Source of the DNA: Escherichia phage vB_Eco_F31
Length of the DNA stretch: 64,000 nt
Sequence record: OP870147.1
Reading direction: 5' to 3' (one strand)
Part shown: positions 7,407 to 61,714 of the stretch, piece after piece
Layout: each line of letters starts with the position of its first letter
Position numbering within the stretch: the stretch's first letter is position 1
The notes under the pieces: generated by a model
What the model saw: only the letters and a program-made list of their open reading frames with translations
Databases searched by the model: none
What the model was told of the DNA's origin: nothing
Made by a program: the position numbers and the translations under genes

Positions 7407-7436
7407 ATAATATCAAAACCGGAGGAGAAGTAAACA
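7407..7436 (-). promoter_or_regulatory. early promoter GTTTAC-N17-TATTAT
   Basis: Minus strand GTTTAC + 17 nt + TATTAT upstream of ORF 6856-7380. Confidence 0.5.
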
Positions 7437-7439
7437 ACT

Positions 7440-7859
7440 TTATGCGAAAGCAGCTGGGCTATATTTTTTAATTTGGAATTCAGGAACTACCATGAACTGA
7501 CCAGCGAAAACGATGTTATAAAGCTTAACACCATCTTCTACCCAACGGTCGCTAATAAATCCGGCGATTTGCTTAGTTTTCCACGGTGTTCCATCAGTTG
7601 CCGCAGCAATAGTGAATTCATGGTCTTTTTCAACAGAAACTGATCTGCATAGTCCCCATTTGAACGCTTTTTCTTCTGGCTCAATGAACTGGCTTGAGAC
7701 GTAGCCAATATTACCATTAGCATCACGAACTTTAACTTGGTTACGACCAAAAACCGGATCACTCACAGAAAGAACTTCAACCAACTTCCCGGCAACTTTA
7801 GAGCGAGAAGCAACAGATACATATACGTAATCACCTGTAGAGAGATTTACAATATTCAT
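7440..7859 (-). CDS. hypothetical protein, member 1 of a tandem paralogue trio
   Basis: 139 aa; shares C-terminal motif GFISDRWVEDGVKLYNIVFAGQF with the two upstream ORFs. Confidence 0.55.
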   Translation of the reverse strand: MNIVNLSTGDYVYVSVASRSKVAGKLVEVLSVSDPVFGRNQVKVRDANGNIGYVSSQFIEPEEKAFKWGLCRSVSVEKDHEFTIAAATDGTPWKTKQIAGFISDRWVEDGVKLYNIVFAGQFMVVPEFQIKKYSPAAFA

Positions 7860-7868
7860 AATAATTCC

Positions 7869-8354
7869 TTAAGCTTTACGAGGAGACACATAACGAGTGA
7901 TTTCAGATTCTTTAACAACTCGGAAGTCACCTAAGAATACGATATTGTATAACTTTTCACCATCTTCTACCCATTGGTCACTAATGAAGCCACACATGGT
8001 ATCAGTTGTGCTTGGATAACCATATTCATCGATGAAGTCAAATTCTTTATCAGTCTGGAATTCAACACCTTTACACAAGGCCCATTTGAACTGTACATTA
8101 GGCTCTGTGGATTCAACTTTTTCTCTTGAAGCAAAAGCACTACTCGCAGGAGTTTCCAAGAACTTTGCACGAACATAAGCGAACTGAGTTTCCCTCGACC
8201 CAAGACTAGGAATAATACGAACTTTTACCTCAGAATCTTCATCTTTAACGCCTTCTTTAAGTTGAATACTTACAACTTCGACCAATTTTCCTGCTGCTTT
8301 AGAACGAGATTTTTTAGATACGCGAACGATTTCACCAATAATACCAAGATTCAT
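7869..8354 (-). CDS. hypothetical protein, member 2 of a tandem paralogue trio
   Basis: 161 aa; C-terminal GFISDQWVEDGEKLYNIVFLGDF; own early promoter. Confidence 0.55.
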   Translation of the reverse strand: MNLGIIGEIVRVSKKSRSKAAGKLVEVVSIQLKEGVKDEDSEVKVRIIPSLGSRETQFAYVRAKFLETPASSAFASREKVESTEPNVQFKWALCKGVEFQTDKEFDFIDEYGYPSTTDTMCGFISDQWVEDGEKLYNIVFLGDFRVVKESEITRYVSPRKA

Positions 8355-8383: not shown

Positions 8384-8413
8384 ATTATACTCCATCCGTC
8401 CTTGGATGTACAA
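8384..8413 (-). promoter_or_regulatory. early promoter cassette (variant of the repeated cassette)
   Basis: Minus strand TGTACA-N17-GTATAAT with CCAAGGACGGATGG in the spacer. Confidence 0.45.
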
Positions 8414-8942: not shown

Positions 8943-8973
8943 ATTATACTCCAACCATCCTTGGTTGTAAACT
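8943..8973 (-). repeat. repeated early promoter cassette (copy 1), PeSL-like
   Basis: attatactccaaccatccttggttgta identical to copies near 50750 and 51770; GTTTAC-N17-GTATAAT on the minus strand. Confidence 0.55.
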
Positions 8974-14941: not shown

Positions 14942-14971
14942 TCTTAACACAGTTTTTAGCGGTTGTAAACT
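14942..14971 (-). promoter_or_regulatory. early promoter (GTTTAC-N17-TAAGAT)
   Basis: Minus strand GTTTAC + 17 + TTAAGAT upstream of ORF 14685-14912. Confidence 0.4.
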
Positions 14972-20139: not shown

Positions 20140-20169
20140 ATAATAACACAACTACTGGAGAAGTAAACT
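20140..20169 (-). promoter_or_regulatory. early promoter upstream of the 105-aa ORF and dmd
   Basis: Minus strand GTTTAC-N17-TATTAT-AGACCTATCAAC; inverted repeat CCAGTAGTT/AACTACTGG around the -10. Confidence 0.55.
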
Positions 20170-27738: not shown

Positions 27739-29423
27739 TAGATTCGTTCCCATTGATGAGTGATATCGCCACCGATTGGACGATAGGAAACACCAGTTTC
27801 TTTATCAGTTAGTACCCATTTACCAGGATTTTTTGTAATCAGAGTAGCCGTTACAGGTTCTGCTACGTCATAACTAATAGAGCCGTCTTGAAGTACACGG
27901 CCCATGTTACGTAATTGCTTAGTCAGAAGTTCCATACCTTTATAATATGCGGCTACCGCTTTAAGTGGATTATTCTTGAAATAACCACCTAATGCAATCC
28001 AGATAATTGCCACTGCCAAATGATGATACTCGTTAAACGAACTCATCTTTCCATATTTGTAAACTAATGGATTGATGTTAATAGTCACATTACAAGTTGT
28101 TTCATCAATAGTAAACTGTCCCCAGGTCGGATTAGCGTTGAATTCATCATAACCTGAAACAGCGTAAAGCACTTTAGCTTCATCGTACAATTTTGGCCCG
28201 TAAATCTTAGTTTCACCAAAATATCCACGAGGGTCGATAAACTTGACTTCGCCATTATCAGTAATCATAGTATTACTGAAGTTCGGGTCACCATGAATAA
28301 CAGAGTACTGTCCCTGAGAACGGTTATGATAACGAATAAGGTGTTCTAAAGCTTGTTTCAGCATTGGCTTCAGACGTCCAATCTTAGTGTAGTTCACGTG
28401 TGTGATTTTACCAAATGAATCAATCAATGGTTGAATGCTTTCACAACGATCAATAACTTTCGTATAGAATTCTTTAGTGAAATCACGACGGACAGTTTCA
28501 GGACTTACAAAATAAGTGTCTGTGCTGAATTTCAGTGCATCTAAAATTGCATCAACAATTTGTGGACGAGCAAGACTTGATTTGGATTTAATATATTCAA
28601 ATGCCGGCTTACCTTTAATGCGTTCCATTTCAAAGTTATTTTCATTAACAGAAACTAACTGAGGAACTGAATCTGATTTCACTTTAAGATACCATGAAAT
28701 CTCATCTTTCTGAAGAGCTCGACCCTGTTCGGTTAATGCGAATTTAGTTACAGTTTCTTCACCAATTTCAACTGCATTAAAACTACGATTAAGTTCACGA
28801 ACTTCATGAGCTTTTTCAAGTTTAGGCATATCACCTAAATCAATTAGATTCATAAGCTCTGATTTATTGAATGCGCTGCCGTAAAGGAATTCTACGAAAT
28901 CACGTCCTTTGCAGTATTCATGAATTTCCTCATCAGTAGAACCCATGTAGAATTCCCAGTCTTTAAACTGATAAATTCCTACAACATTACCGCCTGTTTC
29001 ACCTACATTAGTGATATTTTCACCATCGAAATTATACCGACATTCATCACCCTTAACATAGATTGCGTTAACATTCCAAGACCATGAACCAAAATCGGGA
29101 ATAATATCACACCAGTTAACAATTACGTTATGGCCGTCTAAATCTTTGTGTAATTTAGCAAGAGCATAAGCAGAACCATACGCTTCATCAACTGTACGAA
29201 TAGTCACATTGAACCCTTCTTGCTCACAATAAGCTCGAACAGTTTCAGCAAATTTTGAATGAACTACTACAATAATTTCATCTGCGCCAAGGTCAGAATA
29301 AATTGTATACAAATTGCTCAGAATAGTGTCTTGTTTATAGTTAACAAGCACCTTAGGAATATGATGCGTTATTGGATACAAACGAGTTGCCAGTCCAGCA
29401 CCAAGAATAACAGCTTTTTTCAT
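27738..29423 (-). CDS. bifunctional sugar-1-phosphate nucleotidyltransferase (RmlA-like, N-terminal) / anomeric sugar kinase (ChoK/APH-like, C-terminal)
   Basis: 561 aa; N-terminal MKKAVILGAGLATRLYPIT (G-x-G-x-R, cf. RmlA ILAGGSGTRLYP); C-terminal VIHGDPNFSNTMI (Brenner HGDxxxxN) and FIDPRG. Confidence 0.6.
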   Translation of the reverse strand: MKKAVILGAGLATRLYPITHHIPKVLVNYKQDTILSNLYTIYSDLGADEIIVVVHSKFAETVRAYCEQEGFNVTIRTVDEAYGSAYALAKLHKDLDGHNVIVNWCDIIPDFGSWSWNVNAIYVKGDECRYNFDGENITNVGETGGNVVGIYQFKDWEFYMGSTDEEIHEYCKGRDFVEFLYGSAFNKSELMNLIDLGDMPKLEKAHEVRELNRSFNAVEIGEETVTKFALTEQGRALQKDEISWYLKVKSDSVPQLVSVNENNFEMERIKGKPAFEYIKSKSSLARPQIVDAILDALKFSTDTYFVSPETVRRDFTKEFYTKVIDRCESIQPLIDSFGKITHVNYTKIGRLKPMLKQALEHLIRYHNRSQGQYSVIHGDPNFSNTMITDNGEVKFIDPRGYFGETKIYGPKLYDEAKVLYAVSGYDEFNANPTWGQFTIDETTCNVTININPLVYKYGKMSSFNEYHHLAVAIIWIALGGYFKNNPLKAVAAYYKGMELLTKQLRNMGRVLQDGSISYDVAEPVTATLITKNPGKWVLTDKETGVSYRPIGGDITHQWERI

Positions 29424-29464
29424 GTTGAAGTCCTCATTGGTAAGTAGGAGTATTGTACACTATT

Positions 29465-29608
29465 CTAGTTAAAGCATTCATACTTTGCTTGTAGTCCAAT
29501 CATAATCCATCCAATTACAAGTGTTGGAATCATTACTGGAGCCGTTAAGCTCCAGTAGATAGTCATGACAAGCATCAATAGTAAAAGTCCTATTGTTATT
29601 GCTTTCAT
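29465..29608 (-). CDS. small hydrophobic peptide
   Basis: 47-aa ORF (MKAITIGLLLLMLVMTIYW...), ATGA-coupled to the SIS gene stop. Confidence 0.3.
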   Translation of the reverse strand: MKAITIGLLLLMLVMTIYWSLTAPVMIPTLVIGWIMIGLQAKYECFN

Positions 29609-30240
29609 TGTTCGCCTCGTAACATGGCACCTAGTGCACCGCCTGGATGGAACTTAAGGAAATCATTAGAGGTAAATCCACGTTCAGACGAAAGGTTGAT
29701 AGCGAACGTATCGATAAGCGCTAACAACAATGTAGTAGACATTGTCGGAGCTAAAGAGTTCTCGTCAACTTCTACCGCGATACCGGTACAGAACGTATAA
29801 TCAAAAAGAGCTTCGTATTCTTGTGGAATGTCAGGGTTACAATGTAACAGAATCTGTTTAACCTGAGGACGAATCATACGAAGATGTTTAGCAACACCTA
29901 TCATTTCTTCAGTCTTACCAGAACGACTGATGTGAACTAATACATCATTAGGTGCAATAAATCCTGCGTCACCATGAGAATAATGCCCAGTGTTCAAATA
30001 CATGCTAGGAATACCTAGTGAAGCAAAAGTCTCGGAAGCTTTAGTTGCGATATTAGCATTCTTACCAACACCTGTAATAATTACCCGGCTTTCATAATTA
30101 CTAAGTCCAGGGCGTCGAAGAGTTTCTAGAATAGCATTATATCGGGCAGGGTTTTGACTAATTACTTTAGCCATAGTGGCAAGAGATGAAGCTTGTTTTA
30201 CGATTGCGTCAATAGCGATAGTAATAGGAGTAGTTTTCAT
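29605..30240 (-). CDS. SIS-domain sugar-phosphate isomerase, KdsD/GutQ (arabinose-5-phosphate isomerase)-like
   Basis: 211 aa; ITGVGKNANIATKASETFASLGIPSMYLNTGHYSHGDAGF parallels the KdsD SIS motif [38 protein letters not shown]; no CBS domains. Confidence 0.65.
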   Translation of the reverse strand: MKTTPITIAIDAIVKQASSLATMAKVISQNPARYNAILETLRRPGLSNYESRVIITGVGKNANIATKASETFASLGIPSMYLNTGHYSHGDAGFIAPNDVLVHISRSGKTEEMIGVAKHLRMIRPQVKQILLHCNPDIPQEYEALFDYTFCTGIAVEVDENSLAPTMSTTLLLALIDTFAINLSSERGFTSNDFLKFHPGGALGAMLRGEQ

Positions 30241-30280
30241 ATTTCTCTCATTTAATTAGTTGGCCATCCTTGGCATTATA

Positions 30281-32992
30281 TCAAAAATCAAACATATCGA
30301 ACAGAGATGCTTTCTTCTCGTAATCGAGTTTAGCTGCTGATGTGAATCCTTCAAGTGGTTTAATAAATGTCTTCTCAAGGAGAACAGTGTAGTCCATCCA
30401 ATGAAGTACATCATCTTTGATTAAATCAGTGATTTCCGTACCAGAAGGCCATGCGATACATTTATCACCGAACGGGTTTCCATCACGTAAAGGCAGAACG
30501 TATACCTTTTCGCCTTCTACAACTTGTGGAGCATCAATATTACCTTTGATAGCTCGGTTATATGTCAGAATTCCACGAATATGGAACGGGCATTTAGGTC
30601 CTGGATATCCACCTACATCATATTTAGCAATGTTATTCGCAGAAGATACCGACGCGATGCTAATATAATTCAATTGACGGAATTCTTTTTCAAACTCTTT
30701 AAAATATTCTTGTAATGATTCTTCACCTTCTTGAAGCATACGACGAATACATTCTTTAAGAGCTTTCTGTACTGCTTTAGGGGTCGAAGATTTCTGAGTT
30801 TCTAGACCCATGATTTTGAGTTTAGGCTCAGCGTAACGAGTACCTTCCATATCCCACACGTTTAATGCATAACGTTTCTTACCAGTCCAGAATCCACCAA
30901 TACCTTTAGAACCGAGCGGAGGACCCGCGATAGCTTCTCGGTCCATGAACATTAAGTGTTGTTTATTGTTCATGTATTCACACATTTCACGGAAACCTTT
31001 ATCAATAGCTGGTTCCATACGTTCACGTGCAAACTTATCTAAGAAGTCTACCCAATGGTTGGTATCACGGAATTTAGATTCACCAACCTTATCAATAATT
31101 TTATCTGCAGATACGTAAATGGAGTCTGTATCACCATATAGAACGAAAGCTTCACCTTCTGTACCACAAACTTCATTCAGATATTCATTAACTTTACGTT
31201 CAATCCACTGTAAAGCCATTTGCCCGAATGTTGTGATTGCAGTAGCATTACGCAAATCATAATAACGGAACCAAACGTTGCCAAGTGCACCATAAAGTGA
31301 GTTGATGAGCAATTTACGGTTAATTTGTGCAGTCATACCTGCAACTTCAGTACGTTGAGCTCTAAACAACATTTCGTTAAGAGATTTAGCAGACAACTTT
31401 TTAATCTTTTCTTTAATCTCATCACTGAAGTCGAAACGATAATCAACATCTAATGGTTCGTCAACAGAAAGATTAGGATTATGCAATGCCTCTTTAATTA
31501 TTTCACCATTACGTTGAGCTGCAAGCATGTAACCTTTATGTTCTTTACGTTGATTAAAGACTTTAGTGATTTCAGTTGGAACTACACCATCACGGTCTTT
31601 ATAATACATCATGCCGTTAGGAGAACAACTGTACACATCTGAAGGACGTTCAGCGATTGCGTTAATATAATCATGCAATGGAGCTACTTTAAACGTTCCT
31701 GCTATTGTTTCTGGGCTAATATTCACTTGGCGAATAATACTTGGATACAGAGATGTAAGGTCGAAACTCATTACATATTTGTATCGATTTGGAATAGGTT
31801 CCTTAACAAAAGCGCCAGGATAAGGTTGAACCGGGTGAGAACGACCTTGTGGAATCACCTTGTTCTGCTCTTTAAGGCTATTAAAAATAATAGCATCCCA
31901 TGTTTTAATTGGGCTAAACACAGATTGAATCTGTATCTTAGCATAATAACCCATGTCCAAACTCAAGTTGATGAACTGACGCTTAGCATCAATTTGCAAT
32001 ACACGATACACGTCGATAATGTTATAAGAAATATATCGTTGGTGATTGCTTTCACGAAGCTTAGAAATAGGGCCGTCATATTTCAGTTTACCAACGTTCA
32101 ATTCAAATTCTGAAATGTAATCCAGAGAATACGACGGTTGATTGGTAAAAGAGAATTTTTTGTAAAGGTCAATGTAATCAAGAACAGAGATACCGAACAA
32201 TGTAATGATTTCACGAGAACCATACATGTTTTCGATAACTTTAACACGAGTTTTACGATGTGGTGATAAACGTTTCGCAGTAGATTCGCCAAAAATATTC
32301 TTGATTCGGTTATACACATACGGAATATCAAATGACTCAACGTTCCATCCAGTCAAAATGACAGGAGTTTTCTGTTGCCAGAAGTTGAGATATTCCATCA
32401 ATAATTCTTTTTCATTATCAAACGGCATATAAACGATTTTGTCGATAATTTCGGATGGAACTTCATCACCACCTTGTTCTTGAAGCTTAGCAGCGATTTC
32501 AATAGACCATTCTTCCACATTACCATATGGAGAATTCAATAGATCAAATACGTAGAACCTGTCGTCAATTGAGTCATAATGGGTGATAGCATCAATCGGA
32601 TGTTTTGCTTGTGACGGCTCAGGGAACCCGTCCGGAGATGTTACTTCGATGTCGAAGTTAGCCACACGAATTTTTGTATGGTCGTATTTGATTTCATAGT
32701 TATAAGTGTCAGACAAATACGCCAATTTGAAATCGTCCATGCCAAGTGCTTCAAGCCCGATATCTTCCATGCGTTTAATCCATTGGGAGGCATCACGCAT
32801 ATTAGCGAACAACTTACGAGTACACGGTTTACCGTAGATATCGAAATATTTCGTAGCCTGACTTTCTGGACAATGAGCAAACAGTGATGGTTTATATTCT
32901 ACTTCACGAGTACGTTCACGGCCATTAGAATCGATGTAACGTTCAAAAATTGAATCACCAATCTGTTCAACCGTTAAGTAAAATTCTTTCAT
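30281..32992 (-). CDS. 43: DNA polymerase (family B), gp43
   Basis: 903 aa; exonuclease and polymerase motifs (FDIE, YGDTDS); N-terminus matches the RB69 gp43 sequence as I remember it. Confidence 0.95.
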   Translation of the reverse strand: MKEFYLTVEQIGDSIFERYIDSNGRERTREVEYKPSLFAHCPESQATKYFDIYGKPCTRKLFANMRDASQWIKRMEDIGLEALGMDDFKLAYLSDTYNYEIKYDHTKIRVANFDIEVTSPDGFPEPSQAKHPIDAITHYDSIDDRFYVFDLLNSPYGNVEEWSIEIAAKLQEQGGDEVPSEIIDKIVYMPFDNEKELLMEYLNFWQQKTPVILTGWNVESFDIPYVYNRIKNIFGESTAKRLSPHRKTRVKVIENMYGSREIITLFGISVLDYIDLYKKFSFTNQPSYSLDYISEFELNVGKLKYDGPISKLRESNHQRYISYNIIDVYRVLQIDAKRQFINLSLDMGYYAKIQIQSVFSPIKTWDAIIFNSLKEQNKVIPQGRSHPVQPYPGAFVKEPIPNRYKYVMSFDLTSLYPSIIRQVNISPETIAGTFKVAPLHDYINAIAERPSDVYSCSPNGMMYYKDRDGVVPTEITKVFNQRKEHKGYMLAAQRNGEIIKEALHNPNLSVDEPLDVDYRFDFSDEIKEKIKKLSAKSLNEMLFRAQRTEVAGMTAQINRKLLINSLYGALGNVWFRYYDLRNATAITTFGQMALQWIERKVNEYLNEVCGTEGEAFVLYGDTDSIYVSADKIIDKVGESKFRDTNHWVDFLDKFARERMEPAIDKGFREMCEYMNNKQHLMFMDREAIAGPPLGSKGIGGFWTGKKRYALNVWDMEGTRYAEPKLKIMGLETQKSSTPKAVQKALKECIRRMLQEGEESLQEYFKEFEKEFRQLNYISIASVSSANNIAKYDVGGYPGPKCPFHIRGILTYNRAIKGNIDAPQVVEGEKVYVLPLRDGNPFGDKCIAWPSGTEITDLIKDDVLHWMDYTVLLEKTFIKPLEGFTSAAKLDYEKKASLFDMFDF

Positions 32993-33051
32993 TTAATTTC
33001 CTTTAGACGAGTTATTGTCTTTTGTTTGTTGATGAACTTATTATACTCCAA

Positions 33052-33069
33052 ATGGGACCGAAGTCCCAT
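33052..33069 (-). terminator. UUCG hairpin downstream of regA, upstream of gene 43
   Basis: ATGGGAC-TTCG-GTCCCAT immediately after the regA stop, followed by TTTGGAGTATAAT. Confidence 0.4.
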
Positions 33070-33073
33070 TGCT

Positions 33074-33442
33074 TTAATTACCAATTGTATATTTTGCTTT
33101 CAAAGTCCAGTCATCTTTCTGTTTAAAAGAGATAACACGGAAGTTATTAGTCAGGCCAAACAGATCTTCACGAGCAGAGTCTTCAATAACAATCAATCCC
33201 CAGTCTTCAAGCAACTGAGCAATCGAATCACGTCGTTGATAGTCTTCACCATCAATATCAACTTGACGCCCGTCCATACGCAACATTTCTTTAAAGTGGA
33301 CGATGTAATATTTACCTTGCTTTTGGAGGATATGACAGGACTGATAAAGAACTTTATCCTTGTTATTAGCGATGCCCATACGGGTCAGAGTCTCTTTGAC
33401 TTTAAGAAAATCTTCAGGGTTCTTCAATTTAATTTCGATCAT
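33074..33442 (-). CDS. regA: translational repressor RegA
   Basis: 122 aa from MIEIKLKNPEDFLKVKETLTRMGIANNKDKVLYQSCHILQK, nearly colinear with T4 RegA. Confidence 0.85.
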   Translation of the reverse strand: MIEIKLKNPEDFLKVKETLTRMGIANNKDKVLYQSCHILQKQGKYYIVHFKEMLRMDGRQVDIDGEDYQRRDSIAQLLEDWGLIVIEDSAREDLFGLTNNFRVISFKQKDDWTLKAKYTIGN

Positions 33443-33444
33443 TT

Positions 33445-34008
33445 TTACCATTCCAATGCTAATTTTTTAAATTGTTTTTGTTCTTTCACATTTTTTGTAA
33501 CTTCTTTGAGAAACTCATCAGTGACCATGGCCTTCAGTTCTTTAAGGACTATTGGCAGCTTGTTATTTTTTTCAAGGAGCCGCTTATACTCGGTAGCATC
33601 ATTCATGTTGATTGTGTAATGTTTCATCAACAATTTGATAACTAGTAACTCTGAAGTGTCTTCAACCAGTTTAGCCCATTTAGAGAATCGTCGGCCACGC
33701 GGAATGGCGGCCATCATGTAGTTGAAGTGTGCTTCATCACTTAATTCAGAACCGACTAAGTTCATCATGTAAACAGCTGGCATACATTCCGGGAACTGTG
33801 ATAATGAGTTCTCAACCATAAATTTTGAGTAGTCAACCTGAGCAATTGACATAGATTTCTTTTCATTAATAGCATTAATGATTTTAAAGAATTCATTCTC
33901 AGGTTTTTCTTTAAACATGTCAGCACATTTTTGAATCGCATCAGCGTCGTTAGACTTCCATGCAATTTGGTGCTCGTTAAGTTGGACGTCATCATCAAAT
34001 AAGTTCAT
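33445..34008 (-). CDS. 62: clamp loader small subunit gp62
   Basis: 187 aa; synteny regA-62-44-45. Confidence 0.75.
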
Positions 34009-49770: not shown

Positions 49771-50720
49771 TATAACACCTCAATGGCATTTCGTAAACCA
49801 TCCGCTTTCGCATTCAGAGCTTTTAACGATTTAGTTTGTTCTGCAATCTGGGCTTCGACTTCTTTCAGACGAGATTTGAGATATTCGCGTTCTTCTCTTA
49901 AGTTATCAACCTTTTCTGCTTTAGGCTCTTTAATAGGCTTAGGCTTATACTCGTTAGGGTTCTTCAACTTAATTTGAATGCGAGAACTGTATAACATTGA
50001 ACCATTATCTTCGGTTTCATCATACATTTCTACCACGTCCATGATTCTTAACATCATGCGAAGTTTATAAGACAGCGAACGAATGGTTTTATTGTGCTTC
50101 TTAATTTCTTCAGCTTTCATGGTGCCGAGATTACGTGAGTAATAATAAGGAACCTGAATATCAATTGATAATGATGCGGTACCATTACCGGTTGGTTTGA
50201 ACACTGCAGTAACCCAATCTTTAGCATGAACTGTATTTGTACGATCATCGCCGCCTGTGAATAATTTACGAGAATGTTTAAAAAGCATATTCACTTGGTT
50301 ATTGAATTCACAAGCAAATTTATCAGCAAATTTAGTTTCAGGAATGGTAGTTAACCAATCAGCCAAATGAGTCTTTTTAACATCATTAACAATAGTGAAT
50401 TCAACCAAATCGGTTTTAGATGTCACAGTTTTAATAAAGCTCGGCTTCATAAAGTTTTTAATGTTATCGCGAGCTACAGTAGAAGATAATAAACGAGAAC
50501 GTTTGAACCATTGAAGCAGTGTCCCTAATGAATGAGAATATGCATTTTGAGTATCTTTACAGATATGATTTTCTTGGCCTATGTATGTACCAAAATCTCG
50601 AAGAATACCACTTACTACATCTCGGTGTGGAACATCAAATCCTAGTGCACCAGAAGCACGTTGGGCATGAACGTTAGCGATAAGACCTGCAAAGTATTCA
50701 ATGTAATGTGAACGTGTCAT
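49770..50720 (-). CDS. hypothetical protein with C-terminal coiled coil
   Basis: 316 aa; preceded by a repeated promoter cassette. Confidence 0.5.
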   Translation of the reverse strand: MTRSHYIEYFAGLIANVHAQRASGALGFDVPHRDVVSGILRDFGTYIGQENHICKDTQNAYSHSLGTLLQWFKRSRLLSSTVARDNIKNFMKPSFIKTVTSKTDLVEFTIVNDVKKTHLADWLTTIPETKFADKFACEFNNQVNMLFKHSRKLFTGGDDRTNTVHAKDWVTAVFKPTGNGTASLSIDIQVPYYYSRNLGTMKAEEIKKHNKTIRSLSYKLRMMLRIMDVVEMYDETEDNGSMLYSSRIQIKLKNPNEYKPKPIKEPKAEKVDNLREEREYLKSRLKEVEAQIAEQTKSLKALNAKADGLRNAIEVL

Positions 50721-50749
50721 AATATTTTCCTCTCGTTAAGATAAATTCA

Positions 50750-50778
50750 TTATACTCCAACCATCCTTGGTTGTAAAC
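50750..50778 (-). repeat. repeated early promoter cassette (copy 2), PeSL-like
   Basis: attatactccaaccatccttggttgtaaac; GTTTAC-N17-GTATAAT on the minus strand upstream of ORF 49770-50720. Confidence 0.55.
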
Positions 50779-51742: not shown

Positions 51743-51769
51743 TTTATATTCCTCATGTTGAAAAATTTA

Positions 51770-51797
51770 TTATACTCCAACCATCCTTGGTTGTACA
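51770..51797 (-). repeat. repeated early promoter cassette (copy 3), PeSL-like
   Basis: attatactccaaccatccttggttgtaca upstream of ORF 50783-51742. Confidence 0.55.
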
Positions 51798-52793: not shown

Positions 52794-52855
52794 AACTATT
52801 TCCTCAGATTGAATTGGAACTCAAAACCATTATAACCCGTCCTTGGGTAAAGCGT

Positions 52856-53410: not shown

Positions 53411-53439
53411 ATAATAACATAACCATAGACCTTGTAAAC
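53411..53439 (-). promoter_or_regulatory. early promoter GTTTAC-N17-TATTAT-AGACCTATC
   Basis: Inverted repeat AGGTCTAT/ATAGACCT flanks the -10; upstream of ORF 52856-53383. Confidence 0.55.
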
Positions 53440-61685: not shown

Positions 61686-61714
61686 ATAGTAACACAACTA
61701 GAGGAGAAGTAAAC
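61686..61714 (-). promoter_or_regulatory. early promoter upstream of regB
   Basis: Minus strand GTTTAC-N17-TACTAT-AGACCTGTCAACTAGAGGAG; inverted repeat CTCTAGTTG/CAACTAGAG. Confidence 0.55.

What the first reader, a model, noticed from the sequence alone, without database searches (positions are those of the whole stretch)
30241..30280. CCATCCTTGG palindrome-like motif recurs outside promoters, between the polymerase gene and the isomerase gene
The core of the repeated promoter cassette (ccatccttgg) reappears at about 30263-30272 in the 40-bp gap between the gene 43 stop and the SIS isomerase start, next to a TATAAT-like element. It may be a protein-binding site shared by several early transcription units or a remnant of cassette-mediated insertion of the sugar island.
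Basis: seen in the sequence. Interest (0 to 1): 0.35.

Follow-up and report, generated by a model that had tools for sequence, protein, structure and literature searches.

The report
Promoter hairpin look-alike after polymerase gene
The 10-base motif is real and is the tip of a small hairpin built into several early promoters of this RB69-like phage, but the extra copy after the DNA polymerase gene is almost unique to this phage's lineage, so it is most likely an incidental look-alike.

Summary
The window comes from a Mosigvirus, an RB69-like T4-type coliphage. CCATCCTTGG lies at 30264-30273, one base off the reported position. It sits in the 40-nt gap between the gene 43 stop and the start of the SIS (arabinose-5-P isomerase) gene, beside TGATATAAT. 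On the coding (-) strand it forms a weak hairpin, GCCA-AGGA-UGGC. The motif occurs four times in the window against 0.03 expected. Three copies are paralogous sigma-70 early promoters (TTTACA-A-CCAAGGATGG-TTGGAG-TATAAT) with the hairpin in the spacer. This matches the published PeSL (promoter-early stem-loop) architecture.

The promoter copies are kept in RB69, Dhakavirus and T4, and their stems covary. The junction copy is not kept. Of 153 Mosigvirus records, one has the identical junction, about 32 read CCAAGGACGG, and about 120 read xCATGGACGGTA, whose predicted hairpin is near zero. The flanks are invariant in the fifteen junction sequences read, apart from changes in two divergent records. 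No -35 element, MotA box or terminator is present.

My verdict is a lineage-specific look-alike in a freely varying patch. It is not a shared protein-binding site or a demonstrable insertion scar.

One side result: hairpins with GGA in the loop are strongly enriched in early-promoter spacers (9 observed, 0.09 expected). They resemble the E. coli CsrA binding consensus. This is untested.

The parts
30264..30273 (-). The 10-mer of the finding: CCAAGGATGG on the coding (-) strand, CCATCCTTGG on +
   Evidence: Exact match; sequence read.
30263..30274 (-). Weak stem-loop GCCA-AGGA-UGGC (4 bp, 4-nt loop, about -4.3 kcal/mol)
   Evidence: Folds. The z-score of the 71-nt region is only -0.46. In relatives the same position gives -3.6 to 0 kcal/mol.
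30275..30283 (-). TGATATAAT: the gene 43 stop codon TGA (30281-30283) fused to a TATAAT (30275-30280), formally an extended -10 (TGnTATAAT). Identical in all fifteen Mosigvirus junction sequences read.
   Evidence: No -35 element or MotA box lies upstream (and inspection). Not among the RB69 early or middle promoters predicted by Nolan et al. 2006.
30241..30262 (-). CAACTAATTAAATGAGAGAAAT: ribosome-binding region of the SIS gene (GAGAG at 30245-30249). From 30260 down to the ATG it is invariant in the twelve genomes; two more divergent records carry a base change or a short insertion.
30281..32992 (-). Gene 43, family-B DNA polymerase, ending KKASLFDMFDF*
   Evidence: ORF; Pfam DNA_pol_B_exo1 and DNA_pol_B; annotation of relatives.
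29605..30240 (-). SIS-domain arabinose-5-phosphate isomerase, first gene of the arabinosyl-hmC gene cluster
   Evidence: ORF; Pfam SIS 8e-10; annotation of relatives.
8943..8971 (-). Early-promoter cassette TTTACA-A-CCAAGGATGG-TTGGAG-TATAAT, with hairpin CAACCA-AGGA-TGGTTG in the 17-nt spacer
   Evidence: Conserved in RB69 and listed there as Pe:8947.
50749..50777 (-). Second copy of the same cassette, upstream of the nrdC.3-like gene
   Evidence: RB69 Pe:51019. The T4 counterpart at 49904 keeps CCAAGGATGG with a flanking G:C pair instead of A:T.
51769..51797 (-). Third copy, with TGTACA as the -35 element
   Evidence: RB69 Pe:52042.
8384..8412 (-). Variant cassette TGTACA-T-CCAAGGACGG-ATGGAG-TATAAT (stem CATCC/GGATG, loop AAGGAC)
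   Evidence: (family D4). RB69 Pe:8387. The same variant occurs in Dhakavirus contigs.
52829..52853 (-). GCTTTAC-CCAAGGACGG-GT-TATAAT: middle-promoter-like site (GCTTTA box, 13 nt, TATAAT) with hairpin ACCC-AAGGAC-GGGT
   Evidence: The reading as a MotA-type promoter is my inference from the published consensus.

Best explanation
The 10-mer is the apex of a small stem-loop, N-CCA-AGGA-UGG-N'. This stem-loop is a conserved built-in part of a family of sigma-70 early-promoter cassettes in T4-type phages. [quoted passage not shown]

The copy at the gene 43 / SIS junction is not one of these cassettes. It lies in a 12-nt patch that varies freely among Mosigvirus genomes, between two conserved elements: TGATATAAT, and the ribosome-binding region of the SIS gene. 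In the lineage of this window the patch has drifted to CCAAGGATGGCC. That sequence happens to recreate the cassette core and a weak 4-bp hairpin.

On this reading the SIS gene is expressed mainly by read-through from gene 43 transcripts. The junction hairpin has no conserved role. At most it slightly structures the polycistronic RNA just 5' of the SIS ribosome-binding site.

Shown here: the location, the repeat family, the conservation pattern, and the absence of promoter or terminator signatures. Inferred: neutrality of the patch, and read-through expression.
For: Identity and context:
- The window is a Mosigvirus (98.6% identical to phage ChristianSchoenbein).
- The motif lies between family-B polymerase and SIS genes on the - strand.

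Cassettes:
- Three exact copies and two CCAAGGACGG variants sit inside -35/-10 promoters.
- In the complete genome of the closest relative, CCAAGGA[TC]GG occurs 7 times, all on the early strand, and 6 of these are in promoters.
- Four of the five copies coincide with published RB69 early-promoter predictions; the fifth is the middle-promoter-like site.
- They are conserved in RB69, Dhakavirus and T4. Covarying flanking pairs were counted: three pairs are 100% paired, with 4-7 double changes each.

Junction:
- All 12 genomes have a 40-nt gap with invariant flanks, but 5 of 12 core positions vary.
- Among 153 records, 1 is identical, 32 differ by one base, and 118 differ by 4-5 bases.
- Seven alleles were read in all. 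Of the five folded, predicted stability runs from -4.3 down to 0 kcal/mol. The commonest types, RB69-type and DCP548-type, are essentially unstructured.
- RB69 keeps all five promoter copies but reads TCATGGACGG at the junction.
- There is no -35 element and no terminator, no Rfam family, and the local fold is not better than shuffles.
- About 2.9 chance 10-mer matches to the cassette are expected per window.
Against: - The extra copy is on the same strand as the others and lies in one of the few intergenic gaps. For the core 10-mer alone, the chance expectation is only 0.05 per window.
- All alleles keep CA-W-GGA-Y-GG.
- The junction as a whole (stop codon, TATAAT, 1-3 nt, CA-NGGA-YG, RBS) resembles the nrdA/nrdB junction. 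There a GGA-loop hairpin is conserved with compensatory changes in four genera.
- That nrdB leader is the best non-self match of the RB69-type junction among 193 gene leaders (score 32, next best 25).
- The genomes compared are close (93-98% identical), so the power to show constraint or neutrality on single bases is limited.
Confidence: 0.55

Rival explanations
1. The junction carries a functional GGA-presenting RNA element of the same kind as the promoter-spacer hairpins and the nrdA/nrdB junction hairpin. In read-through mRNA, the CA-(A/U)-GGA-(U/C)-G string, in or near a hairpin loop, would be recognised by a GGA-specific factor. Two candidates exist. One is host CsrA, whose SELEX consensus is RUACARGGAUGU with GGA in a hairpin loop. 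The other is the phage endoribonuclease RegB, which needs an unpaired GGA with the fourth base constrained. Either would tune translation or stability of the downstream cistron. Transcripts starting at the adjacent TATAAT would lack the element.
For: - GGA-loop hairpins are strongly enriched in early-promoter spacers: 9 of 57 against 0.09 expected, and 9 of the 10 spacer hairpins with stems of 5 bp or more have GGA in the loop.
- C, A, GGA and G are invariant in 13 such hairpins.
- T4 position 2457 reads ACAAGGAUGU, an exact match to the CsrA consensus as quoted in PMC4347634.
- RegB requirements are quoted in PMC3014915.
- The nrdA/nrdB junction hairpin is conserved with compensatory changes in Mosigvirus, T2, Dhakavirus and Karamvirus. 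It is the closest relative of the gp43/SIS junction among 193 leaders.
- All junction alleles keep CAWGGAYGG.
Against: - The hairpin is not maintained at the junction: 0 to -0.7 kcal/mol in the commonest alleles.
- Most alleles read GGAC, which is not a RegB GGAG/U site.
- The SIS Shine-Dalgarno sequence (GAGAG) has no second GGA for a bridging CsrA dimer.
- CA.GGA[CT]G also occurs 11 times in coding sequence on the same strand and 12 times on the other strand.
- No paper linking CsrA to T4-type phage mRNAs was found.
- The covariation set was picked by a hairpin scan, so it is partly circular.
Confidence: 0.25
2. The junction is a decayed relic of a regulatory cassette that came in when the SIS module replaced the T4-type terminator / early promoter / imm.1 / imm segment downstream of gene 43. 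The source could have been a PeSL-type promoter cassette or a copy of an nrdA/nrdB-like intercistronic element. The stem has since eroded, leaving TATAAT and the loop region.
For: - The junction is a genuine module boundary. The small ORF after SIS (29465-29608) is homologous to the T4 imm-42 intercistronic stretch, so SIS occupies the place of T4 imm.1-imm.
- In other genera the SIS gene has a different upstream neighbour.
- PeSLs are documented as recombination points, and degraded 'half' PeSLs are described (PMC2839356, PMC4122927).
- The full-length similarity of the RB69-type junction to nrdA/nrdB junctions is P <= 0.0013 for three of the four compared, against shuffles. It ranks 1 of 192 among leaders.
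Against: - Similarity to the promoter cassette is confined to the 10-mer and vanishes for the majority allele.
- No partner cassette lies at the other end of the island: no early promoter by my pattern scan between window positions 20167 and 42836.
- The leader similarity is modest (32 against 25 for the next best). AT-rich ribosome-binding regions resemble each other in any case.
- Allele polarity was not determined.
Confidence: 0.13
3. TGATATAAT is an active -35-independent (extended -10) promoter for the arabinosyl-hmC genes. [quoted passage not shown]
For: - There is a perfect TGnTATAAT, identical in all fifteen junction sequences read.
- That PeSL subclass is described in PMC2839356.
- The nrdA/nrdB junction has the same TATAAT-then-hairpin order in four genera.
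Against: - There is no -35 element, UP-like A-tract or MotA box (and inspection).
- The TGA is the gene 43 stop codon, and the upstream bases are fixed by the conserved clamp-binding C-terminus KKASLFDMFDF. Conservation therefore need not reflect promoter function.
- It was not predicted as an early or middle promoter in RB69.
- TATAAT-like hexamers followed by small hairpins occur at chance frequency on both strands (21/189 against 22/165).
Confidence: 0.05
4. The motif is a double-stranded DNA operator for a phage early protein, shared by several early promoters and the junction.
For: It is an inverted repeat with a fixed strand and location in promoter spacers.
Against: - Stem sequences differ completely between promoters while the loop is kept: CAACCA, CATCC, CACCA, ACACC, ACACA, CCACA, TATAG.
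- Its position in the spacer shifts by 3 nt.
- The junction copy is not conserved.
Confidence: 0.02

Closest known systems
PeSL (promoter-early stem-loop) cassettes of T4-type phages (Arbiol et al. 2010, PMC2839356; Comeau et al. 2014, PMC4122927)
   Same: [quoted passage not shown] They are intergenic, lying between the upstream stop codon and the downstream SD/ATG. They are repeated in the early, plastic regions of the genome. Degraded copies occur near module boundaries.
   Different: The published RB49/phi1 stem-loops are G-run/C-run stems. The T4/PST ones are described as AGNA-loop-TCNT, lying just upstream of the promoter. Here the stems are short (4-6 bp), and the loop is a conserved (A/U)GGA with a CA...UG closing region kept from T4 to RB69. 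No U-tract follows, so terminator activity is doubtful. The junction copy lacks the promoter half altogether.
CsrA/RsmA binding sites (SELEX consensus RUACARGGAUGU, GGA in a hairpin loop; the CsrB/CsrC sponge RNAs carry 18 and 9 such sites; PMC4347634)
   Same: The core CA-(A/U)-GGA-U-G presented in the loop of a 4-6 bp hairpin matches the consensus. One T4 copy (ACAAGGAUGU) matches exactly. Most sites lie 20-50 nt upstream of a Shine-Dalgarno sequence that itself often contains GGA.
   Different: No binding was tested. The first A of ACA is C in the main cassette. The element lies in promoter spacers, so it is RNA only in read-through transcripts. The SIS leader has no second GGA. No literature link between CsrA and T4-type phage mRNAs was found.
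RegB endoribonuclease target sites of T4 (GG*AG/U in early intergenic RNA; PMC3014915)
   Same: The sites are on early-strand intergenic RNA, and the GGA is unpaired with the fourth base held in the stem. GGAU is present in this window's allele. A GGAG follows the hairpin in the main cassette. A regB gene is present in the genus.
   Different: The strong-site consensus GGAGRAYARAA is not matched. Many copies read GGAC or GGAA. Most junction alleles read GGAC.
Translational occlusion hairpins of T4 gene e, described in PMC3014915 (soc, 49 and I-TevI added from memory), in which read-through RNA hides the RBS and promoter-initiated RNA does not
   Same: A structure that exists only in read-through transcripts, because the internal promoter starts inside or after it. 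Many other early promoters in this window follow this logic: their spacer is complementary to the downstream SD.
   Different: The CCAAGGATGG hairpin is local and does not pair with the Shine-Dalgarno sequence. At the junction it ends 13 nt upstream of the SD.

Membership tests
PeSL cassette | Sigma-70-like early promoter (-35 near TTGACA/TTTACA, 17-nt spacer, -10 TATAAT) | tested here: not met
   At the junction only TGATATAAT is present, with no -35 element at 16-18 nt (inspection). The feature is met by the copies at 8943-8971, 50749-50777, 51769-51797 and 8384-8412.
PeSL cassette | Stem-loop within or next to the promoter (between -35 and -10, across -10, upstream, or just downstream of -10) | tested here: met
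   The junction has GCCA-AGGA-TGGC starting 1 nt after the TATAAT. The cassettes have a 5-6 bp stem in the spacer. The definition is quoted.
PeSL cassette | [quoted passage not shown] | tested here: met
   The 40-nt gap lies between the gene 43 stop and the SIS ATG.
PeSL cassette | Association with insertions, deletions or replacements between close relatives | tested here: inconclusive
   The junction is a module boundary relative to T4 and to other genera. Within Mosigvirus, however, the gene order is fixed in 153 records, and no partner cassette flanks the island.
PeSL cassette | Terminator/attenuator and promoter activity; mini-circle formation | not testable with these tools
   These need reporter assays and inverse PCR. 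The sequence shows no U-tract after the stem.
CsrA binding site | GGA in the loop of a short hairpin, with CA upstream and UG downstream (RUACARGGAUGU) | tested here: met
   The window allele reads GCCA-AGGA-UGGC, that is CAAGGAUG. In most relatives the hairpin is lost but CAUGGACG remains.
CsrA binding site | Second GGA site at or near the Shine-Dalgarno sequence, for a bridging dimer (feature recalled from memory, not checked in a paper here) | tested here: not met
   The SIS leader is AAAUGAGAGAAAUAUG and contains no GGA.
CsrA binding site | Binding by CsrA and a CsrA-dependent effect on expression | not testable with these tools
No literature was found.
RegB cleavage site | GGAG (rarely GGAU) in early intergenic RNA, with GGA unpaired | tested here: inconclusive
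   The window allele has GGAU in a loop. About 150 of 153 relatives have GGAC. The requirement is quoted.
RegB cleavage site | A-rich 3' context GGAGRAYARAA | tested here: not met
   The junction reads GGAUGGCCAAC.
Intrinsic terminator | G+C-rich stem of at least 5 bp followed by a U-run | tested here: not met
   The scan of 29000-34000 finds none at the junction. The stem is 4 bp and is followed by CAACUAAUU.
T4 middle (MotA-dependent) promoter | MotA box (a/t)(a/t)(a/t)TGCTTtA 11-13 nt upstream of TAnnnT | tested here: not met
   The sequence upstream of TATAAT is GATATGTTTGATTTTTGA, which has no GCTT box. It is not in the RB69 Pm list.

The most novel reading that the evidence does not exclude
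T4-type phages may carry a conserved class of small RNA hairpins that display CA-(A/U)-GGA-(U/C)-G in the loop. These hairpins are embedded in the spacers of a subset of early promoters and in a few intercistronic junctions (nrdA/nrdB, and in this lineage gp43/SIS), so they exist only in read-through transcripts. They would act as binding sites for the host global regulator CsrA, or for another GGA reader such as RegB. The effect would be either to silence the downstream cistron on read-through RNA or to titrate CsrA in the manner of CsrB. On this reading the junction copy in this window would be a newly gained member of that class.
Probability: 0.15. Interest if true: 0.65.

Novelty: new member of a known kind. 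Interest (0 to 1): 0.2.

Why it matters
As stated, the finding matters little. The copy after gene 43 is nearly private to one lineage and shows no sign of selection, so it tells us nothing firm about regulation of the arabosyl-hmC genes or about how the island arrived.

It does point to something more general. PeSL-type promoter/stem-loop cassettes were described for RB49/phi1, T4/PST and KVP40/nt-1. They also exist in the RB69 group, where the stem-loop has a conserved GGA loop and covarying stems retained from T4 to RB69.

If that loop is read by CsrA or RegB, it would connect phage early transcription units to a host or phage post-transcriptional regulator in a way not yet described. It would also explain why spacer sequences, which are normally free to vary, are conserved in these promoters.

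Tried and rejected
- **Intrinsic terminator after gene 43.** Rejected: 4-bp stem and no U-run. T4 has a real terminator-like hairpin there, but this phage does not.
- **Full sigma-70 or MotA promoter at the junction.** Rejected: no -35 element and no GCTT box. It is absent from the published RB69 promoter lists.
- **Known RNA family.** Rfam gave nothing at gathering score in the whole window and only noise at the junction.
- **Exceptional RNA stability.** Folds of the junction and of the cassettes are within the range of shuffles (z -0.5 to -1.6).
- **Conservation outside Mosigvirus.** The SIS gene in ten other viral contigs has a different upstream gene, so the junction cannot be compared across genera.
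- **Gene conversion from a cassette as the origin of the junction allele.** Not needed. The alleles form a mosaic series connected by single substitutions.
- **'TATAAT followed by a hairpin' as a general class.** Its frequency is the same on both strands. Only two intercistronic cases carry a GGA loop.
- **Genome-wide excess of GGA-loop hairpins.** This is only modest overall: 34 against 21 on the opposite strand at stems of 5 bp or more. The excess is concentrated in promoter spacers.
- **The Tseng et al. 1990 paper on the nrdB promoter.** It could not be read because it is not held.

Full report
**What is at the coordinates**

The window is from a Mosigvirus, an RB69-like T4-type coliphage. 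The region 29500-31000 is 98.6% identical to Escherichia phage ChristianSchoenbein and 94-98% identical to about 150 other Mosigvirus records. Genes here run on the - strand.

A 903-aa ORF (30281-32992) is a family-B DNA polymerase. A 211-aa ORF (29605-30240) has a SIS domain. Relatives annotate them as gene 43 and arabinose-5-phosphate isomerase.

The 40-nt gap reads, on the coding strand: TGA TATAAT G CCAAGGATGG CCAACTAATTAAATGAGAGAAAT ATG. It forms GCCA-AGGA-UGGC, a 4-bp stem with a 4-nt loop of about -4.3 kcal/mol. The 71-nt region folds no better than shuffled sequence (z -0.46).

**Is it more than chance?**

The exact 10-mer occurs four times in the window, all in the same orientation, against 0.03 expected. 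Three of the four copies are parts of one repeated 30-50-nt element, so they count as one event.

For the single additional copy, the core alone has an expectation of 0.05. A reader looking for any 10-mer of the cassette would expect about 2.9 chance matches per window. Three extra loci were in fact found: this site, another promoter's -35 region at 14970, and the -10 region upstream of gene 43. With one or two mismatches allowed there is no enrichment.

**What the repeated element is**

On the coding strand the three copies read (G)TTTACA-A-CCAAGGATGG-TTGGAG-TATAAT. That is a near-consensus -35 box, a 17-nt spacer and a perfect -10 box, each followed 25-40 nt later by an SD and ATG. One copy has TGTACA as its -35 box. 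The spacer contains the hairpin CAACCA-AGGA-TGGTTG. A fourth promoter (8384-8412) has TGTACA-T-CCAAGGACGG-ATGGAG-TATAAT, and a fifth site (52829-52853) has GCTTTAC-CCAAGGACGG-GT-TATAAT.

In the complete genome of the closest relative, CCAAGGA[TC]GG occurs seven times. All are on the early-gene strand. Six lie in promoters and the seventh is the junction.

Four of the five sites coincide with RB69 early promoters predicted by Nolan et al. 2006: Pe:8387, 8947, 51019 and 52042. The architecture is the one published as PeSL, promoter-early stem-loop. [quoted passage not shown]

**The promoter hairpin is conserved and covaries**

- RB69 keeps all five copies.
- Dhakavirus contigs carry GTTTACA-T-CCAAGGA[CT]GG-A-TGGAGTATAAT upstream of a homologous gene, although the surrounding sequence has diverged.
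- T4 has the exact 10-mer at the nrdC.4/nrdC.3 junction, with a G:C flanking pair in place of A:T. T4 also has TTTACT-tta-CCACA-AGGA-TGTGG-TATAAT upstream of rIIA.1.

Across 13 such elements, the three pairs outside the CA/UG closing region are paired in every sequence, with 4, 7 and 5 double changes (covariation score 0.63 against 0.18 in shuffles). This set was partly chosen by a hairpin scan, so the count is not independent.

An unbiased test is the following. Of 57 candidate early-strand promoters in the relative's genome, 9 have a perfect hairpin of at least 5 bp with GGA in the loop inside the spacer. The expectation is 0.09 from shuffled spacers and 0.08 from random genomic windows. Nine of the ten spacer hairpins with stems of 5 bp or more have GGA in the loop.

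Stems differ completely (CAACC, CATCC, CACCA, ACACC, ACACA, CCACA, TATAG), and the element's offset in the spacer differs by 3 nt. This argues for a stem-loop read as single-stranded nucleic acid. It argues against a duplex operator for a sequence-specific protein.

**The junction copy is not conserved**

In twelve Mosigvirus genomes the gap is always 40 nt, and TGATATAATG and AACTAATTAAATGAGAGAAATATG are invariant. Five of the twelve positions between them vary.

Over all 153 records that hold the junction:
- one (ChristianSchoenbein) is identical over 55 nt;
- 32 differ by one base; those inspected read CCAAGGACGG;
- 118 differ by four or five bases, reading CCATGGACGGTA, TCATGGACGGTA or ACATGGACGGTA.

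Three further records add mosaic alleles. Predicted hairpin stability falls from -4.3 kcal/mol in this window to -0.7 for the RB69 type and 0 for the DCP548 type, which are the commonest classes. RB69 thus keeps every promoter copy but not the junction copy.

The variable fraction of the patch (5 of 12) is what one would expect of unconstrained sites, given that about 8-10% of all flanking coding positions vary. The 28 flanking intergenic bases did not vary in those twelve genomes. The simplest reading is a neutral patch between two constrained elements. In this lineage the patch reached the cassette core by one or a few substitutions from CCAAGGACGG.

**What the junction is not**

- It is not a full promoter. 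It has no -35 element and no MotA box, and it is absent from the RB69 early and middle promoter lists.
- TGATATAAT is formally an extended -10. However, its TGA is the gene 43 stop codon, and the bases upstream encode the conserved C-terminus KKASLFDMFDF.
- It is not a terminator.
- It matches no Rfam family.
- Small hairpins directly after TATAAT-like hexamers occur equally often on both strands.

**Island boundary**

The 47-aa ORF just after SIS (29465-29608) is homologous to the unannotated T4 imm-42 intercistronic stretch. In this phage group SIS therefore occupies the position of T4's terminator, early promoter, imm.1 and imm. The remaining arabinose genes lie between that small ORF and gene 42. 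In ten other viral contigs the SIS gene follows a different gene.

The junction is thus a real module boundary, and the PeSL literature describes degraded cassettes at such places. Three points count against a cassette relic:
- similarity to the cassette is limited to the 10-mer;
- it is not significant for the majority allele (P 0.23-0.75);
- no partner cassette lies at the far end, with no early promoter found by my pattern scan between window positions 20167 and 42836.

**An unexpected relative**

The nrdA/nrdB junction of the relative's genome has the same layout: stop codon, TATAAT, 2-3 nt, hairpin ACUCA-UGGA-UGAGU, then the RBS. That hairpin is conserved in Mosigvirus, T2, Dhakavirus VR5 and Karamvirus EnC07. 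EnC07 reads GGACCA-CGGA-UGGUCC, with three compensatory pairs.

The RB69-type gp43/SIS junction aligns with it over its full length: TGATATAA..TG..TCATGGACG.GT.AACTA. Among 193 gene leaders of that genome, the nrdB leader is its best non-self match, with a score of 32 against 25 for the next best and a median of 14. This is suggestive but not conclusive. It leaves room for two rivals: that the junction is a decayed copy of such an element, or a weak working member of the same class.

**How the hairpin class might work (inference)**

The invariant part, CA-(A/U)-GGA-(U/C)-G in a loop closed by a short stem, matches the SELEX consensus of E. coli CsrA. That consensus is RUACARGGAUGU, with ACA and GGA invariant and GGA in a hairpin loop (PMC4347634). 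The T4 copy ACAAGGAUGU matches it exactly.

The motif also fits what is reported for the phage nuclease RegB acting without S1: GGA unpaired and the fourth base constrained (PMC3014915). The many GGAC and GGAA copies fit RegB less well.

Because the hairpins lie in promoter spacers or just after a -10 box, they would exist only in read-through RNA. The same logic applies to the many other early promoters in this window whose spacer is complementary to the downstream Shine-Dalgarno sequence, and to the gene e case described for T4 (PMC3014915). The published PeSL view is a terminator or attenuator role. The absence of a U-tract makes that doubtful for these short stems.

I found no paper connecting CsrA with T4-type phage mRNAs. 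None of this was or could be tested here.

**Verdict**

The best explanation is a lineage-specific look-alike of a PeSL-type stem-loop in a freely varying patch (confidence 0.55). The main rival is a weak functional GGA-presenting RNA element related to the nrdA/nrdB junction hairpin (0.25).

Interest in the finding itself is low. The GGA-loop hairpin class that it led to is the part worth following up.

Noticed in passing
window 33040-33070 (- strand): A hairpin AAUGGGAC-UUCG-GUCCCAUU lies between regA and gene 43. It is followed one base later by GGAGTATAAT, the counterpart of the T4 P43 middle-promoter region (T4 29947; mapped start 29933). UUCG is by far the commonest tetraloop on the early strand of the relative's genome: 19 hairpins with stems of at least 5 bp, against 6 for the next most common loop.
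   Followed up: partly
window 61686-61713, 20140-20167, 7407-7434, 53411-53438 (- strand): In several early promoters the spacer is complementary to a stretch just downstream of the -10. In three of them that stretch is the downstream Shine-Dalgarno region, for example TTTACT-TCTCCTCTAGTTG-tgt-TACTAT-...-CAACTAGAGGAGA. The result is a hairpin of about 13 bp across the -10 that would hide the SD only in read-through RNA. At 53411-53438 the pairing is shorter (AGGTCTAT/ATAGACCT) and does not reach the SD.
   Followed up: partly
window 29465-29608 (- strand): A 47-aa hydrophobic ORF overlaps the SIS stop codon. It is homologous to the unannotated stretch between imm and gene 42 in T4, so a small conserved membrane peptide appears to be missing from the T4 annotation. 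It also marks where the SIS module was joined.
   Followed up: partly
L024 42935-42990 (ChristianSchoenbein nrdA/nrdB junction, outside the window); L040-L044: An element made of stop codon, TATAAT, 2-3 nt and a GGA-loop hairpin is conserved across Mosigvirus, T2, Dhakavirus and Karamvirus with compensatory stem changes. It is the closest relative of the gp43/SIS junction among 193 gene leaders.
   Followed up: partly
window 52829-52853 (- strand): GCTTTAC-CCAAGGACGG-GT-TATAAT looks like a MotA-type middle promoter (GCTTTA box, 13 nt, TATAAT). It carries the same GGA-loop hairpin (ACCC-AAGGAC-GGGT), so the hairpin is not restricted to -35-type early promoters.
   Followed up: no
window 7471-7562 and 7900-7991: A 92-nt direct repeat at 71% identity lies inside two adjacent genes that RB69 annotates as MotB-like. 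It suggests a tandem gene duplication.
   Followed up: no
L039 27013-27197 (T4, gene 43 to imm.1): T4 has a GGACC-UCCA-GGUCC hairpin (GGACCTCCAGGTCC) followed by a T-run directly after gene 43, and then an early promoter for imm.1. Both are absent in this phage, where SIS starts 40 nt after the gene 43 stop.
   Followed up: no
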